Notes under the pieces: model-generated
Told to the model about the DNA's origin: nothing
The model's input: only the letters and a program-made list of their open reading frames with translations
The model's database searches: none
In this document: positions 4,118-32,000 of the stretch, piece by piece
How the letters are laid out: every line of letters begins with the position of its first letter
Position numbering within the stretch: the first letter of the stretch is position 1
Program-made: the position numbers and the translations under genes
DNA from: Pseudothioglobus sp. nBUS_23
GTDB lineage: Bacteria; Pseudomonadota; Gammaproteobacteria; PS1; Pseudothioglobaceae
NCBI RefSeq assembly: GCF_051201565.1
Contig: NZ_CP179200.1
Coordinates: 210,001 to 242,000 of the forward strand
Length of the DNA stretch: 32,000 bases
Direction of reading: 5' to 3'

Positions 4118-5657
<1,540 letters not shown>

Positions 5658-5748
5658 AGAAAAGCATGAGTGTTCACACAAGTTGTTTGATAATAATAAA
5701 GTAAGAGAAAAAAGACCAATAACCCAAAGTCAATTTTTTTGATATTAA

Positions 5749-5825
<77 letters not shown>

Positions 5826-5849
5826 ATTTCTGGGTTATTAGTTTTAATT

Positions 5850-5925
5850 GGGGCTATAGCTCAGCTGGGAGAGCGCCTGGTTTGCATCCAGGAGGTCAGC
5901 AGTTCGATCCTGCTTAGCTCCACCA
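5850..5925 (+). tRNA. tRNA-Ala (anticodon UGC)
   Basis: GGGGCTATAGCTCAGCTGGGAGAGCGCCTGGTTTGCATCCAGGAG...TAGCTCCACCA has anticodon loop TTTGCAT, the G3:U70 alanine identity pair and an encoded CCA. Confidence 0.97.
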
Positions 5926-6011
5926 TTTTTCTCAAGTGAAAACTTAAATAAGATTTAGTCATAAGTTTTATTTAAGTTTTTATACCCTTTCTGGTGCAAA
6001 CTGGACTGGGA

Positions 6012-6023
6012 GCTCTTTAACAA
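6012..6023 (+). promoter_or_regulatory. boxA-like antitermination element in the 16S-23S spacer
   Basis: GCTCTTTAACAA is a 12/12 match to the core of the E. coli boxA consensus. It occupies the position expected for spacer boxA, downstream of the spacer tRNAs. Confidence 0.6.
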
Positions 6024-6026
6024 TTT

Positions 6027-6229
6027 GGATATGAAGTAAAGTTTGTTAAATACAATACAACGTAAGGTGTATTGCATTGACACAACAATTTCAAAAAATA
6101 TGGATTCTCATTGATAGATTAATTTCTATCATTGATAAATAGAATTCACTGATTGTATCGAAAGATATAACTAGTGACTTCACAAGGTGAAATACGAAAC
6201 CATTTAACCCAGATACTTTGGGGTTATAT

Positions 6230-6236
<7 letters not shown>
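6027..6236 (+). other. 5' flank of 23S forming a long segmented processing helix with the 3' flank (9111-9189)
   Basis: Three complementary segments were found by eye. 6223-6236 pairs with 9111-9124 (14 perfect bp, including the mature termini). 6077-6088 (TTGACACAACAA) pairs with 9145-9156 (TTGTTGTGTCAA, 12 perfect bp). 6034-6044 pairs with 9174-9184 (11 bp). Confidence 0.7.
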
Positions 6237-9119
<2,883 letters not shown>

Positions 9120-9264
9120 ATAACACCCAAGATATTTGGAGATGTTGTTGTGTCAACAGGCAATATGCCTTATAAACTTTACTTTATCCATTTTGTTATA
9201 CCTCTGGTATAAAAACTTTTTAATTCATTTGAGTTAGGTTTCGACTTAGTTCAAGTAAGCAGTT

Positions 9265-9384
9265 TGCTTAGTGATAATAGCAAGTGTGACCCACCTGATC
9301 CCATCCCGAACTCAGAAGTGAAACCACTTAGCGCCGATGGTAGTGTGGGGTCTCCCCATGTGAGAGTAGGACATTGCTAGGCTT
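9265..9384 (+). rRNA. rrf: 5S ribosomal RNA
   Basis: A 120-nt sequence collinear with E. coli 5S (…CCCACCTGATCCCATCCCGAACTCAGAAGTGAAAC…GCCGATGGTAGTGTGGGGTCTCCCCATGTGAGAGTAGG…). The termini pair as helix I. Confidence 0.97.
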
Positions 9385-29652: not shown

Positions 29653-29742
29653 GGCGATAATTTTATATTCTTTCTAATCAACCATTAAATTTTTCTTTAT
29701 TTTTTCTCGAGTTTGGTACATAATGCGATTTGGAGGCTTGAT

Positions 29743-30618
29743 ATGCACGAAAATAAAGACTTAATTGACCAGTTTCATAGGGATGGTTACCTCTTCTTTG
29801 AGAACGCCATTACCAGTGAACAACTCGCATCACTAAATTCTGAGCTATCCAAGTGGGTTGAGGAGAGCAAAAAACATAAAGAGCCCTTCGGCAGAATCAT
29901 GGACGGCAGACCTCGATTTGATCTTGAGCCAAAAACACACTCACCTGAAACACCTGCGGTTAGAAGAATAACTTCCCCAGCAGAGATTTCTGATATTTGC
30001 CTGGATGTTGTCAAAGACAATAATGCACTGGATTTAGTTTCTGAAATCTTTGGTCCAAATATCACTCATTTGGGAAACAAAATAAATCTCAAGTTACCTG
30101 GTGCTGGAACTGAAGTAAAGTTCCACCAAGACTTTCCTTTTGAGCCGCATTCAAATGAGGACATTATGACGGTGCTTTATTTTTTGGATGATGTGACTCT
30201 GGATAATGGGCCATTAGAGGTCGTCCCAGGGACACATAACGGGCCACTCCACTCTCATTGGCAGAATGGTATTTTTACAGGTGCAGTGGATGACAAAGTT
30301 ATGGAGTCGAACAAGAACAAAGCTATAAAGTGCACTGGAAAGGCGGGCTCTGCTTGCCTCATGCATTCAAAGTTACTGCATGGTTCAGCGCCGAATTTAT
30401 CGGCCCATTCAAGATCTCTCTTTATTGTGACCTATAAGGCTGAGGATGCAGTAGCTCTTTCACCAAACCATCTCCCTAGTGAGCTTGTTGGAATGGTTGT
30501 TAGAGGGAAAGAAACTGGAACTGTCAGGTGTACTAGTTACAGTATTGAGTTACCAGAGTACCCTAAAGAGGTCTCTTTCTTTGGCCAACAATCAAAAAGT
30601 AAAAACATGGCAATGTAA
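29743..30618 (+). CDS. Phytanoyl-CoA dioxygenase (PhyH) family Fe(II)/2-oxoglutarate dioxygenase
   Basis: The ORF has the N-terminal F..DGY…NAI…L pattern, the facial-triad H-x-D in KFHQDFPF, PLEVVPGTH and a distal His in LLHGSAPN. I prefer the ATG at 29743 (GGAGG at 29732-29736, 6 nt upstream) over the track's TTG at 29713. Confidence 0.8.
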   Translation: MHENKDLIDQFHRDGYLFFENAITSEQLASLNSELSKWVEESKKHKEPFGRIMDGRPRFDLEPKTHSPETPAVRRITSPAEISDICLDVVKDNNALDLVSEIFGPNITHLGNKINLKLPGAGTEVKFHQDFPFEPHSNEDIMTVLYFLDDVTLDNGPLEVVPGTHNGPLHSHWQNGIFTGAVDDKVMESNKNKAIKCTGKAGSACLMHSKLLHGSAPNLSAHSRSLFIVTYKAEDAVALSPNHLPSELVGMVVRGKETGTVRCTSYSIELPEYPKEVSFFGQQSKSKNMAM

Positions 30619-30703
30619 AGCCAATCTTAACTTTTAGTACTTTATACATGAAGGGGATACAATCGACTTAATCAAAAAAATTTCTATAGTCGGCGACGAG
30701 CTG

Positions 30704-31795
30704 GTGATTGACTGGAATGATGGGAATAAAAGCTCACTCTTCAGCTACTGGCTCAGGGATAACTGCCAGATGCCTGAATCAAGAAACGAGAATAATGGCC
30801 AAAGACTCTTTAGTGTTAAAGACTTACCTGAAGATGTATCCATAGAGAAGGCTTATAAGGATGAAAACGGAGATGTTTGTATCCTATTTCAGCCTGAAAA
30901 TCACTTATCAGTCTTTACGCAAGATTGGCTACTCTCCAATTGCTATGACCTCAATGATCACTTTGATGACAGGAGCGAGAAACAAAAAATGCTCTGGCAA
31001 AAAAATAGTTTTGAGAATGGACTGCCACTAATTGACTATGATTTAATGAGCAAGGATGAGATAAAATTAAAAGCGCTTTGCTCCTTGAGAGACATAGGTT
31101 TTTTTGTTTTAATGGGTGTCCCGACAGTTGAAGGACAAGTATTAAAAGTCATCAGTGAAATGGGTTACACTCGGGAGACCAACTATGGAGCTCTGTTTGA
31201 GGTGAGAACTGAAGTCAACCCAAACAATCTTGCTTATACCAACCTAGGGCTTGGATCTCACACCGATAATCCATACCGAGACCCTGTCCCAACGGTGCAG
31301 CTGCTGCATTGTCTCGAGAGCTCTACCGAGGGCGGAGATTCAATCTTGGTTGACGGCTTTAAGGCCGCCTCAATTCTTCGTGATGAAAGCGAAGAGAGCT
31401 TTCTAACCTTGGCTAGTAACTGGATTAATTATCGATTTACTGATTCTAAAACTGATCTCCGCTCAAGGGTCCCGATGATCGAGTTAAATGACAATCATGA
31501 GATTATCAAGGTCAGATATAACAACCGATCAATCGATACAATTAATGTCCCAAAAGATAAAGTAAGGCTTTTTTATAAGGCCTACCGTCACTGGAGCGAG
31601 GTCATTGAGAGAGACGAATTGAAGATTCAATTCAAGCTTTCTGAGGGGGATTTAATGCTGTTCGATAACACTCGAGTTATGCACGCCAGAACTAAGTTTT
31701 CAAAAACTGGAAAGCGCCACCTACAAGGAGCCTATACAGATTTAGATGGACTTTACAGTCTCCTAAATACATTAGAAGATAAAAAAAATGACTGA
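30704..31795 (+). CDS. Gamma-butyrobetaine hydroxylase-like (BBOX/TmpA-like) Fe(II)/2OG dioxygenase with N-terminal DUF971-type domain; start codon uncertain
   Basis: Strong collinearity with human BBOX1 as I recall it: NLAYTNLGLGSHTDNPYRDPVPTVQLLHCLESSTEGGDSILVDGF versus NVAYTTGKLSFHTDYPALHHPPGVQLLHCIKQTVTGGDSEIVDGF. Further matches are DNTRVMHAR versus DNWRLLHGR, RHLQGAYTDLD versus RHLEGAYADWD, and N-terminal SYWLRDNC versus AVWLRDNC. The frame is open from 30638, and the conserved N-terminal strand appears to start before the first canonical start (GTG 30704). Confidence 0.85.
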   Translation: MIDWNDGNKSSLFSYWLRDNCQMPESRNENNGQRLFSVKDLPEDVSIEKAYKDENGDVCILFQPENHLSVFTQDWLLSNCYDLNDHFDDRSEKQKMLWQKNSFENGLPLIDYDLMSKDEIKLKALCSLRDIGFFVLMGVPTVEGQVLKVISEMGYTRETNYGALFEVRTEVNPNNLAYTNLGLGSHTDNPYRDPVPTVQLLHCLESSTEGGDSILVDGFKAASILRDESEESFLTLASNWINYRFTDSKTDLRSRVPMIELNDNHEIIKVRYNNRSIDTINVPKDKVRLFYKAYRHWSEVIERDELKIQFKLSEGDLMLFDNTRVMHARTKFSKTGKRHLQGAYTDLDGLYSLLNTLEDKKND

Positions 31796-32000
31796 GATTA
31801 CTTCGCAAAATGTTGTAGACCTTATTGAAGATATTTTTCTTCGGCGCGGCGCTGAATCATACCTTGGTGAACAGGTCACGATGGCACAGCACATGCTTCA
31901 AACGGCCCAATGTGCTGAAGAGGCTGGCGCTGATGGTGCTCAAATAGTGGCAGCACTTCTTCATGATATAGGTCATTACAAAAACGAAATTCCTGAGTCA
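31788..32000 (+). CDS. HD-domain protein, PhnZ/TmpB-like candidate (5' fragment; continues beyond the window)
   Basis: Not in the ORF track because it is truncated by the window edge. Manual translation from the ATG at 31788 gives MTEITSQNVVDLIEDIFLRRGAESYLGEQVTMAQHMLQTAQCAEEAGADGAQIVAALLHDIGHYKNEIPES. The pattern YLGE-x6-QH-x-LQ-x-A…AALLHDIGH (His35, then His59-Asp60) fits the N-terminal metal-ligand layout I recall for PhnZ-type HD oxygenases. The ATG overlaps the upstream stop by 8 nt (ATGACTGA). Confidence 0.6.
   Translation, partial: MTEITSQNVVDLIEDIFLRRGAESYLGEQVTMAQHMLQTAQCAEEAGADGAQIVAALLHDIGHYKNEIPES

What the first reader, a model, noticed from the sequence alone, without database searches (positions are those of the whole stretch)
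30638..32000. BBOX-like Fe/2OG hydroxylase translationally coupled to an HD-domain gene: candidate TmpA/TmpB- or PhnY/PhnZ-type oxidative C-P bond cleavage pair
Seen in sequence: a gene with clear gamma-butyrobetaine-hydroxylase family motifs (HTD…H triad, RHLQGAY) ends at 31795. An ORF starting at 31788 overlaps it by 8 nt and encodes an HD protein with the N-terminal pattern YLGE…QH.LQ.A…AALLHDIGH. Established knowledge: two characterised organophosphonate pathways pair an Fe/2OG hydroxylase with an HD-domain mixed-valent diiron oxygenase. PhnY/PhnZ acts on 2-aminoethylphosphonate. TmpA/TmpB acts on 2-(trimethylammonio)ethylphosphonate, and TmpA had been misannotated as gamma-butyrobetaine hydroxylase. 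Inference: this pair would let a streamlined marine-type gammaproteobacterium obtain phosphate, plus glycine or glycine betaine, from phosphonates without C-P lyase. Automated annotation would probably label it carnitine biosynthesis plus a generic phosphohydrolase. Substrate specificity is unknown, and the HD gene is only 71 codons deep in this window.
Basis: partly seen in the sequence, partly recalled or inferred. Interest (0 to 1): 0.72.

Follow-up and report, generated by a model that had tools for sequence, protein, structure and literature searches.

The report
TmpA/TmpB-type phosphonate-cleaving oxygenase pair
The window ends with a two-enzyme oxidative pathway, mislabelled in public databases as carnitine biosynthesis, that most likely lets a marine Thioglobus-like bacterium split the carbon-phosphorus bond of trimethyl-aminoethylphosphonate into phosphate and glycine betaine; it is a new member of a pathway described in 2019, not a new kind of system.

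Summary
A TauD/GBBH-fold Fe/2OG dioxygenase gene ends at 31795. An HD-domain ORF starts at 31788, overlaps it by 8 nt and is cut by the window end after 70 codons.

- The dioxygenase is closest to Leisingera TmpA (324 bits, 45% identity) and further from human BBOX (188 bits, 33%).
- It keeps TmpA's phosphonate ligands N187/N287/R288 ('NNRS'; BBOX has 'NNAT') and lacks BBOX's Cys3 zinc motif.
- The HD fragment is closest to TmpB. It has the YxxE loop and the first three diiron ligands. Full-length orthologs (74-89% identical) have all six.
- Of about 80 nearest genomic homologs, 41 are fused to the HD domain and 32 are adjacent to it.

Caveats:
- The orthologous HD proteins score below NCBI's TmpB cutoff (256-270 vs 300).
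- The dioxygenase also passes the old 'gamma-butyrobetaine dioxygenase' model, but so does authentic TmpA.
- There is no transporter or Pho box nearby.
- The upstream PhyH-family gene belongs to the same Pfam family as PhnY*, but it is not consistently linked to the pair.
- The dioxygenase lacks a canonical start codon before GTG 30704.

Verdict: new member of a known kind, of moderate ecological interest.

The parts
30638..31795 (+). tmpA-like Fe(II)/2-oxoglutarate dioxygenase: GBBH-like N-terminal domain plus TauD/TfdA catalytic domain. The frame is open from 30638; the first canonical start is GTG 30704; the stop is TGA 31793-95.
   Evidence: Pfam TauD 4.5e-41 and GBBH-like_N 2.5e-10. PDB: TmpA 6npb 324 bits vs hBBOX 188 bits. 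NCBIfam TmpA NF049936 423.6 against a cutoff of 400. Fe triad H31259/D31265/H31682, 2OG Arg 31715, N187/N287/R288 equivalents at 31226/31523/31526, and cage Y31184/F31196/Y31235/Y31733.
31788..32000 (+). tmpB-like HD-domain mixed-valent diiron oxygenase. Only the N-terminal 70 codons are present, because the window end cuts the gene; orthologs are 186-187 aa.
   Evidence: Pfam HD 3.2e-05. PDB: TmpB 6npa 62 bits vs PhnZ 41 bits. NCBIfam TmpB model 95.9 bits for the fragment, the best family. Y25/E28 (YxxE loop), H35, H59 and D60 are invariant in an alignment with TmpB and PhnZ. The fragment is 89% identical to the full-length L081 ortholog.
31788..31795 (+). 8-nt overlap (ATGACTGA) between the tmpA stop and the tmpB start, preceded by an A8 run at 31781-31788. 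This indicates translational coupling.
   Evidence: Read directly. The same 8-nt overlap occurs in L006 and L081, a 4-nt overlap in L002, and a true in-frame fusion in L004/L005.
29743..30618 (+). Upstream PhyH-family Fe/2OG dioxygenase gene (291 aa from ATG 29743). It is probably co-transcribed with the pair, but whether it belongs to the pathway is doubtful.
   Evidence: Pfam PhyH 3e-29. Weak matches to the ectoine-hydroxylase model (65 bits, cutoff 336) and the methylphosphonate-hydroxylase PhnY* model (31.5 bits, cutoff 500). A 22-85 nt gap to tmpA with no terminator. It is adjacent to tmpA only in Thioglobaceae loci, and 70-72% orthologs sit elsewhere without tmpAB.
29653..29742 (.). Conserved divergent intergenic region between nfeD (minus strand) and the PhyH gene. 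It is the likely promoter and RBS region for PhyH-tmpA-tmpB.
   Evidence: Blocks such as GATTTTATATTCTTTCT and TTTTTCTTTATTTTTTCT, and GGAGG just before the ATG, are conserved across loci whose proteins are only about 70% identical. No Pho-box-like site was found there.

Best explanation
The pair is an orthologous, though divergent, TmpA/TmpB system in a Thioglobaceae-like (SUP05/Arctic96BD-19 group) marine gammaproteobacterium.

Step 1 (inferred from homology and conserved active-site residues). The TmpA-like Fe(II)/2-oxoglutarate dioxygenase binds a quaternary-ammonium phosphonate, most likely 2-(trimethylammonio)ethylphosphonate. It holds the ammonium group in an aromatic cage and the phosphonate through Asn/Asn/Arg, and it hydroxylates C1.

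Step 2 (inferred). The TmpB-like HD-domain enzyme uses a mixed-valent Fe(II)/Fe(III) cofactor bound by H...HD...H...H...D and gated by the YxxE loop. It carries out a four-electron oxidation of the (R)-1-hydroxy intermediate with O2, which cleaves the C-P bond and releases phosphate and glycine betaine.

Shown by sequence: the two genes overlap by 8 nt, and in relatives they are fused, so they are made together.
For: - **Pairwise similarity, dioxygenase.** It scores 324 bits (45% identity) against L. caerulea TmpA and 188 bits (33%) against human BBOX.
- **Pairwise similarity, HD.** The window fragment is 54% identical to TmpB. Full-length orthologs score about 195 bits (51%) against TmpB and about 117 bits (42%) against PhnZ.
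- **Family models.** The dioxygenase scores 423.6 on the TmpA equivalog model, above the 400 cutoff. TmpB is the best-scoring family for both the HD fragment and the full orthologs.
- **Residues, dioxygenase.** The HxD...H triad, the 2OG Arg and the aromatic cage are kept. So are N187, N287 and R288, which PMC9296572 names as TmpA's phosphonate ligands. BBOX has Ala at the Arg position.
- **Zinc motif.** BBOX's Cys38/40/43 zinc motif is reduced to one Cys, as in TmpA, which has none.
- **Residues, HD.** Y25, E28, H35, H59 and D60 are in the window. The remaining His, His and Asp are conserved in the L081, L002, L006 and L004 orthologs.
- **Genomic linkage.** Of 79 primary TmpA-like genes from a scan of about 185,000 species genomes, 41 are fused to an HD domain and 32 have it adjacent or overlapping. 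All of them carry Arg at the R288 position (NNRS; NSRS in 5).
- **Fusion in close relatives.** The fusion is real in two Ca. Thioglobus MAGs.
- **Phylogeny.** In an NJ tree the Thioglobaceae clade has 100/100 support. The HD-linked set including TmpA separates from hBBOX and three paralogs in 79/100.
- **Downstream context.** Relatives carry a dimethylglycine-dehydrogenase-like gene and a homocysteine-S-methyltransferase gene nearby. This fits use of the glycine betaine product.
Against: - The HD gene is truncated in the window, so three of its six metal ligands are seen only in orthologs.
- Those orthologs score 256-270 bits on NCBI's TmpB model, below the 300 cutoff. Authentic TmpB scores 358.
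- The dioxygenase scores higher on TIGR02409, the 'gamma-butyrobetaine dioxygenase' model, than on the TmpA model (478 vs 424). Authentic TmpA shows the reverse (433 vs 600). The clade is therefore divergent, and its substrate could differ.
- No phosphonate or quaternary-amine transporter, regulator or Pho box lies in the window or next to the pair in relatives.
- The dioxygenase lacks a canonical start codon where its closest homologs start.
- No biochemical data exist for this clade.
Confidence: 0.8

Rival explanations
1. Same two-step chemistry, different substrate. The Thioglobaceae pair would form a separate specificity group within the TmpA/TmpB family and act on another aminoalkylphosphonate, for example a partly N-methylated 2-AEP or a longer-chain trimethylammonio-phosphonate. 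The co-transcribed PhyH-family dioxygenase might hydroxylate a second phosphonate for the same HD oxygenase.
For: - HD orthologs fall below the TmpB equivalog cutoff (256-270 vs 300). The dioxygenase has an intermediate profile: 424 on the TmpA model and 478 on TIGR02409.
- The loop after HDIGH differs from both TmpB and PhnZ.
- The upstream gene is in Pfam PhyH, the family of PhnY* (PMC3909097). It sits 22-85 nt upstream with no terminator between.
- GmPhnZ is known to accept two substrates (PMC10574752).
Against: - Every residue known to contact TMAEP in TmpA is conserved: the cage and N187/N287/R288.
- The PhyH protein matches the PhnY*-type model at only 31.5 bits against a cutoff of 500. 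It matches ectoine hydroxylase better, at 65 bits.
- PhyH is absent within 10 kb of tmpAB in all non-Thioglobaceae loci and in Ca. Thioglobus L004/L005.
- Orthologs at 70-72% identity sit between ftsK and a MORN-repeat gene with no tmpAB.
- Relatives at 39-50% identity lie in amine and amino-acid catabolic contexts.
Confidence: 0.13
2. A genuine gamma-butyrobetaine hydroxylase (carnitine formation), as public annotation says, that merely sits next to an unrelated HD phosphohydrolase.
For: - TIGR02409 score is 478.3 against a cutoff of 414.75.
- NCBI and JGI name 90% identical proteins 'gamma-butyrobetaine dioxygenase'.
- The aromatic cage for a trimethylammonium group is shared with BBOX.
Against: - Authentic TmpA also passes the TIGR02409 cutoff (433 bits), so that model does not discriminate. 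Human BBOX fails the TmpA model (294 vs 400), whereas the window protein passes it.
- An Arg replaces BBOX's Ala in the acid-binding NN(A/R) motif, and the BBOX zinc-site cysteines are missing.
- The HD partner is TmpB/PhnZ-like rather than a nucleotide hydrolase. It overlaps the dioxygenase by 8 nt and is fused to it in 41 relatives.
Confidence: 0.04
3. A decaying or poorly expressed copy. Loss of the ancestral start codon (TTT at 30641-43 where close homologs have a start) leaves an N-terminally truncated or weakly translated dioxygenase.
For: - No ATG, GTG or TTG lies in frame between the stop at 30635-37 and GTG 30704.
- P0435 and P0437 (90% identical) begin MIHEGDT..., one codon before the window's ATA 30644.
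Against: - The same TTT is found in two independent assemblies, L001 and L082.
- The rest of the frame is intact over 385 codons with all catalytic residues.
- The region upstream of 30704 shows mostly synonymous or conservative differences from L081, as expected for translated sequence.
- GTG 30704 is a usable start and is the one called in a 91% identical homolog, P0436.
Confidence: 0.03

Closest known systems
TmpA / TmpB of Leisingera caerulea (Rajakovich et al. 2019; PDB 6NPB-D, 6NPA; NCBIfam NF049936, NF049941)
   Same: - Same two folds: GBBH_N plus TauD dioxygenase, and an HD diiron oxygenase.
- Same gene order, with a tightly coupled operon.
- Same Fe and 2OG ligands, aromatic cage and phosphonate ligands N187/N287/R288.
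- Same YxxE loop and H...HD...H...H...D set, the last three ligands seen in orthologs.
- Best hits in PDB and NCBIfam.
   Different: - Only 45% (TmpA) and about 51% (TmpB) identical.
- A gammaproteobacterial (Thioglobaceae) clade whose sister is Zobellella/Oceanisphaera, not the Rhodobacterales group that holds L. caerulea TmpA.
- HD orthologs score below the TmpB curated cutoff.
- A PhyH-family gene lies upstream, and there is no LysR regulator like those next to the plasmid homologs.
PhnY* / PhnZ (HF130 metagenomic clone) and GmPhnY*/GmPhnZ1 of Gimesia maris
   Same: Same pathway logic: an Fe/2OG hydroxylation at C1 followed by HD-domain diiron oxidative C-P cleavage. The HD protein is homologous to PhnZ (about 42% identity, 117 bits).
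   Different: - The hydroxylase here has the TauD/GBBH fold, whereas PhnY* enzymes have the PhyH fold (PMC3909097).
- The HD protein scores better on TmpB than on the PhnZ-type models: 256-270 vs 199-206 (TIGR03276) and 150-157 (GmPhnZ1).
Gamma-butyrobetaine hydroxylase (BBOX1; TIGR02409)
   Same: Same overall fold, Fe triad and trimethylammonium aromatic cage. The protein passes the TIGR02409 cutoff and is so named in public records.
   Different: - 33% identity.
- NNRS instead of NNAT at the acid-binding site.
- The Zn-binding Cys38/40/43 motif is missing.
- It is coupled or fused to an HD oxygenase.
PhoF of Fonsecaea multimorphosa (fused PhnY-PhnZ; cited in PMC10574752)
   Same: A hydroxylase and an HD oxygenase in one polypeptide. 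The same solution is seen here for TmpA-TmpB in Ca. Thioglobus L004/L005 and in about 39 actinomycete loci.
   Different: In this window the two proteins are separate ORFs that overlap by 8 nt. PhoF's hydroxylase half is of the PhnY type.

Membership tests
TmpA (2-trimethylaminoethylphosphonate dioxygenase) | GBBH-like N-terminal domain plus TauD/TfdA catalytic domain, with an HxD...H iron triad and a 2OG-binding Arg | tested here: met
   Pfam PF06155 and PF02668. H31259, D31265, H31682 and R31715 align with the TmpA ligands.
TmpA (2-trimethylaminoethylphosphonate dioxygenase) | Phosphonate-binding N187, N287 and R288 (residue roles from PMC9296572) and an aromatic cage for the trimethylammonium group | tested here: met
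   The alignment pattern YFNYHDNNNRS is identical to TmpA, while hBBOX reads YWNYHDYNNAT.
TmpA (2-trimethylaminoethylphosphonate dioxygenase) | Score at or above the curated cutoff of NCBIfam equivalog NF049936 (400 bits) | tested here: met
   423.6 bits. Controls: authentic TmpA 600, hBBOX 294. The margin is small.
TmpA (2-trimethylaminoethylphosphonate dioxygenase) | Encoded next to, or fused with, a TmpB-type HD oxygenase | tested here: met
   8-nt overlap in the window. 73 of 79 nearest homologs are fused or adjacent to an HD domain.
TmpA (2-trimethylaminoethylphosphonate dioxygenase) | Hydroxylates TMAEP to (R)-OH-TMAEP | not testable with these tools
   Needs an enzyme assay.
TmpB ((R)-1-hydroxy-2-trimethylaminoethylphosphonate oxygenase) | HD-domain diiron ligand set H...HD...H...H...D | tested here: inconclusive
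   H35, H59 and D60 are present in the window. The gene is cut at codon 70. The remaining H, H and D are conserved in orthologs that are 74-89% identical over the shared 70 residues.
TmpB ((R)-1-hydroxy-2-trimethylaminoethylphosphonate oxygenase) | YxxE substrate-gating loop (Y30/E33 in TmpB, Y24/E27 in PhnZ; PMC8177086) | tested here: met
   Y25 and E28 (SYLGE) are invariant in the alignment with TmpB and PhnZ.
TmpB ((R)-1-hydroxy-2-trimethylaminoethylphosphonate oxygenase) | Score at or above the curated cutoff of NCBIfam equivalog NF049941 (300 bits) | tested here: not met
   The fragment scores 95.9 bits. Full-length orthologs score 256-270 bits. Controls: TmpB 358, Kiloniella homolog 338, PhnZ 140. 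TmpB is the best-scoring family, but the score is below the cutoff.
PhnY*/PhnZ (2-AEP oxidative pathway) | The hydroxylase is a PhyH-family enzyme orthologous to PhnY* | tested here: not met
   The coupled hydroxylase is TauD/GBBH-type. The upstream PhyH protein scores only 31.5 bits on the GmPhnY* model (cutoff 500). No HF130 PhnY* sequence could be obtained for a direct comparison.
Gamma-butyrobetaine hydroxylase (BBOX) | Carboxylate pocket N191/N292 without an Arg, and an N-terminal Zn site with Cys38/Cys40/Cys43 (my knowledge of the hBBOX structures; numbering checked against the alignment) | tested here: not met
   An Arg follows the NN motif (NNRS). Only one of the three Cys residues is present (WLRDNCQMPES vs WLRDNCPCSDC).
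Gamma-butyrobetaine hydroxylase (BBOX) | Score at or above the TIGR02409 cutoff (414.75 bits) | tested here: met
   478.3 bits. Authentic TmpA also passes at 433.4, so this feature does not separate the two families.

The most novel reading that the evidence does not exclude
The Thioglobaceae clade would be a separate specificity group of the TmpA/TmpB family. Its conserved three-gene unit PhyH-tmpA-tmpB would use two different Fe/2OG hydroxylases, one PhnY*-fold and one BBOX-fold, to feed one promiscuous HD diiron oxygenase. This would widen the range of aminophosphonates, methylated and unmethylated, that an abundant oxygen-minimum-zone bacterium can mineralise.
Probability: 0.1. Interest if true: 0.6.

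Novelty: new member of a known kind. Interest (0 to 1): 0.33.

Why it matters
TMAEP and related phosphonates are part of marine dissolved organic phosphorus. A 2023 review (PMC10574752) reports an estimate that tmpB-like genes occur in under 1% of surface-ocean bacteria.

This pair sits in the core-genome neighbourhood (trmB-xth-pyrE-nfeD) of several Thioglobaceae (SUP05/Arctic96BD-19) lineages. Close homologs are very numerous in metagenomes: more than 7,000 database clusters at E<=1e-50, many of them over 75% identical. That suggests a widespread route to phosphate plus glycine betaine in an abundant marine clade.

No paper in the searchable library links this clade to phnZ or tmpAB. Public records label the dioxygenase 'gamma-butyrobetaine dioxygenase', which would wrongly imply carnitine synthesis.

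The practical value is corrected annotation and a concrete target for assay. The chemistry itself is already known.

Tried and rejected
1. **Extending this exact contig.** An exact-sequence look-up of the 363-aa product found nothing. I used close relatives instead: L081 (TARA contig; PhyH 89%, TmpA 83% and HD 89% identical), L001, L002 and L006.
2. **Is the PhyH gene a PhnY*-type partner?**
   - I searched with HF130 PhnZ.
   - I then inspected three PhnZ-homolog contigs for an adjacent PhnY* to use as a reference. None had a PhyH neighbour, so no direct comparison was possible.
   - The only test available was the weak GmPhnY* model score.
3. **A recurring 'PhyH + 238-aa protein' pair.** This is rejected. 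The two 238-aa neighbours are unrelated to each other.
4. **Pho box upstream of the cluster.** None was found. The four 3-mismatch sites in the window all lie elsewhere and are no more than chance expects.
5. **Recent horizontal transfer.** GC content is a uniform 0.39-0.44 across the region, against a window mean of 0.41, and synteny is conserved. There is no sign of an island.
6. **The Rajakovich 2019 primary paper.** It is not held in the library. Residue roles were taken from PMC9296572 and PMC8177086.
7. **An assembly error as the cause of the missing start codon.** This is rejected, because L001 and L082 share the same frame and the same TTT.
8. **First bootstrap script.** It timed out and was redone with a faster distance routine.
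Full report
**1. What is in the sequence**

The last 2.3 kb of the window carries three same-strand genes.
- A PhyH-family gene runs from 29743 to 30618. It has an ATG start preceded by GGAGG, and its close homologs are also 291 aa.
- A frame is open from 30638 to the TGA at 31793-95.
- An ORF begins at ATG 31788 and runs off the window at 32000.

The second and third overlap by 8 nt (ATGACTGA), directly after an A8 run. Pfam assigns PhyH to the first gene. It assigns GBBH-like_N plus TauD to the second and HD to the 70-residue fragment.

**2. Identity of the dioxygenase**

- **Solved structures.** The best match is L. caerulea TmpA (6npb, 324 bits, E 8e-96). Human BBOX follows at 188 bits and DfmD at 116 bits. 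By BLASTP the protein is 45% identical to TmpA and 33% to BBOX.
- **Family models.** NCBIfam gives 423.6 bits on the TmpA equivalog (cutoff 400). It also gives 478.3 bits on TIGR02409, 'gamma-butyrobetaine dioxygenase' (cutoff 414.75).
- **Controls.** Authentic TmpA scores 600 on the TmpA model and 433 on TIGR02409. Human BBOX scores 294 and 563. TIGR02409 therefore accepts real TmpA and cannot discriminate, whereas the TmpA model rejects BBOX. The window protein passes the TmpA model, but by a small margin, so it belongs to a divergent branch.
- **Active-site residues.** PMC9296572 states that TmpA binds the phosphonate with N187, N287 and R288, while BBOX uses two Asn residues only. In an alignment of the window protein, TmpA, BBOX and 83 homologs, the window has N/N/R ('NNRS'). 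BBOX has 'NNAT'. The cage positions Y173/F177/Y190/Y358 and the Fe and 2OG ligands are conserved.
- **Zinc motif.** The BBOX Zn-site motif C38-x-C40-xx-C43 is reduced to a single Cys. Its role comes from my knowledge of the hBBOX structures, and the numbering agrees with the alignment.

**3. Identity of the HD protein**

The 70-residue fragment matches TmpB (6npa) at 62 bits and PhnZ at 41 bits. Its best NCBIfam model is TmpB (95.9 bits).

To see the rest of the protein I used relatives with conserved synteny:
- L081, a TARA contig, which is 89% identical over the 70 residues;
- L002, a Ca. Thioglobus MAG;
- L006, the complete genome of Ca. Pseudothioglobus sp. Uisw_041.

These HD proteins are 186-187 aa. 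They score about 195 bits against TmpB and about 117 bits against PhnZ. They carry the full H...HD...H...H...D set and the YxxE loop (residue roles from PMC8177086). On the NCBIfam TmpB model they score 256-270 bits. TmpB is their best family, but the scores are below the 300 cutoff. Authentic TmpB scores 358 and PhnZ 140. The HD protein is therefore TmpB-like but not a textbook equivalog.

**4. Linkage as evidence of function**

A scan of one genome for each of about 185,000 species returned 80 loci with TmpA-like genes at 42-89% identity. In my ORF analysis, 41 of these genes are single ORFs that contain both the TmpA-like and the HD domains. These are mostly from Kitasatospora and Streptomyces. 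Another 32 have the HD gene adjacent or overlapping. Of the few without one, L001 simply ends at the contig edge. Two Ca. Thioglobus MAGs, 72-73% identical to the window protein, have a genuine in-frame fusion through the linker ...LERGGSRVDEV..., read directly. Overlap, adjacency and repeated fusion make a functional pair very likely.

In an NJ tree the Thioglobaceae sequences form one clade (100/100). Its sister group is Zobellella/Oceanisphaera. The HD-linked set including TmpA separates from BBOX and three unlinked paralogs in 79/100.

**5. Surroundings**

- **Window context.** The rest of the window is housekeeping: gshA, mnmE, a complete rRNA operon at 4118-9382, an MMPL transporter, serS, secDF, fabAB, purF, folC, trmB, xth, pyrE and nfeD.
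- **What is missing.** There is no phosphonate or quaternary-amine transporter, no regulator and no Pho-box-like site by the cluster. GC content is uniform.
- **Downstream genes vary among relatives.** L081 has an inositol-catabolism cluster with a TRAP transporter. L006 has two aroQ genes and a DAO+GcvT (dimethylglycine-dehydrogenase-like) gene. L002 and L004 have a URO-D-like ORF, and L002 also has a homocysteine S-methyltransferase. The last two would fit demethylation of glycine betaine, TmpB's product. This is suggestive only, and none of it lies in the window.

**6. The upstream PhyH gene**

PhnY*, the hydroxylase of the PhnY*/PhnZ pathway, is a PhyH-family protein (PMC3909097). A PhyH gene 22-85 nt upstream of tmpA with no terminator between therefore deserved a test. 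The results argue against a firm link.
- It matches the only PhnY*-type model available at 31.5 bits (cutoff 500), and ectoine hydroxylase better at 65 bits.
- It lies next to tmpAB only in some Thioglobaceae loci. It is absent within 10 kb of tmpAB in L004/L005 and in every other taxon.
- Orthologs at 70-72% identity, as close to the window protein as the tmpA-linked copies of L002 and L006 are, lie between ftsK and a MORN-repeat gene with no tmpAB.
- Relatives at 39-50% identity lie among amine and amino-acid catabolic genes.

It is probably co-transcribed here, but its role in phosphonate use is unproven. I give that about 10-15%.

**7. Start codon**

No ATG, GTG or TTG lies in frame between the stop at 30635-37 and GTG 30704. 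Homologs at 90-92% identity begin MIHEGDTIDL..., at the codon that reads TTT in the window and also in the independent assemblies L001 and L082. Other relatives begin MKGD... or MD(K/T)IDL.... Many are called only from an internal ATG, giving 338-342 aa. Differences from L081 upstream of 30704 are mostly synonymous or conservative, which suggests the stretch is translated. In the window the start is either GTG 30704, which loses about 21 residues, or a near-cognate codon: ATA 30644, or ATC 30662 behind AAGGGG. This is unresolved.

**8. Comparison with known systems, and novelty**

The system works like TmpA/TmpB. It meets every testable defining feature of TmpA. For TmpB it meets the features visible in the fragment, and the full ligand set is seen in orthologs, but the orthologs miss the curated HMM cutoff.

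It is not PhnY*/PhnZ, because the hydroxylase fold is wrong. It is not BBOX, because of the Arg in the acid pocket, the missing Zn motif and the HD partner.

Public sources name a 90% identical Ca. Thioglobus protein 'gamma-butyrobetaine dioxygenase'. I found no paper that links SUP05/Thioglobus to this pathway.

**9. Verdict**

This is a correctly recognised new member of a known kind. Its value is ecological and for annotation rather than mechanistic. Confidence is about 0.8 for TmpA/TmpB-type function, and about 0.13 that the substrate range differs from TMAEP. Interest is 0.33.

Noticed in passing
window 30635-30706: The tmpA-like gene has no canonical start codon where its 90-92% identical homologs start (TTT at 30641-43 instead of a start codon). 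The same is true in two independent assemblies. Start positions differ among close relatives, and many are called only from an internal ATG. A near-cognate start (ATA 30644, or ATC 30662 behind AAGGGG) or GTG 30704 must be used.
   Followed up: partly
L004 9947-11656; L005 9893-11644; about 39 actinomycete loci (e.g. L008 9995-11566): In-frame TmpA-TmpB fusion proteins of about 520-570 aa occur in two Ca. Thioglobus MAGs and in many Kitasatospora and Streptomyces genomes. They parallel the fungal PhnY-PhnZ fusion PhoF.
   Followed up: partly
window 29743-30618: A PhyH-family dioxygenase of a small subfamily (103 representative clusters at E<=1e-30) lies just upstream and is probably co-transcribed. 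Orthologs at 70-72% identity occur elsewhere without tmpAB. Its substrate is unknown.
   Followed up: yes
L004 16621-17778; L005 16226-17332; L020 11528-12892: Second, unlinked TmpA/BBOX-like paralogs, 31-33% identical to the window protein. The L004 copy scores 343 bits on the TmpA model, below the cutoff. The L004/L005 copies have SPRL in place of NNRS, and L020 has TAFL. L004/L005 have no HD gene nearby, while L020 has one 157 nt away. Their function is unknown.
   Followed up: no
L002 11681-12979; L004 11634-12977 and 12979-13644: In some Ca. Thioglobus relatives, a URO-D-like (methyltransferase-like) ORF of 432-447 aa follows tmpB directly, and in L004 a ureidoglycolate-lyase-like ORF comes after it. 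This may be further processing of the methylated product.
   Followed up: no
L006 12706-15141 (-); L002 14042-14944 (-): A dimethylglycine-dehydrogenase-like gene (DAO+GcvT) and a homocysteine S-methyltransferase gene lie within 3 kb of tmpB in relatives. This is consistent with glycine betaine demethylation.
   Followed up: partly
window 4118-9382: A complete rRNA operon: 16S at 4118-5657, two tRNAs at 5749-5922, 23S at 6230-9119 and 5S at 9267-9382. It could be used to place the organism taxonomically.
   Followed up: no
window 29653-29742: The nfeD/PhyH divergent intergenic region is unusually well conserved at the DNA level across lineages whose proteins are only about 70% identical. It may hold regulatory sites. 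No Pho-box-like site was found there.
   Followed up: partly
L001 (CALKDH010000028.1): The closest genomic locus (PhyH 99% and TmpA 89% identical, with the same synteny) is labelled 'uncultured PS1 clade bacterium', an alphaproteobacterial group. All other relatives are Thioglobaceae, so the contig is probably mis-binned.
   Followed up: no
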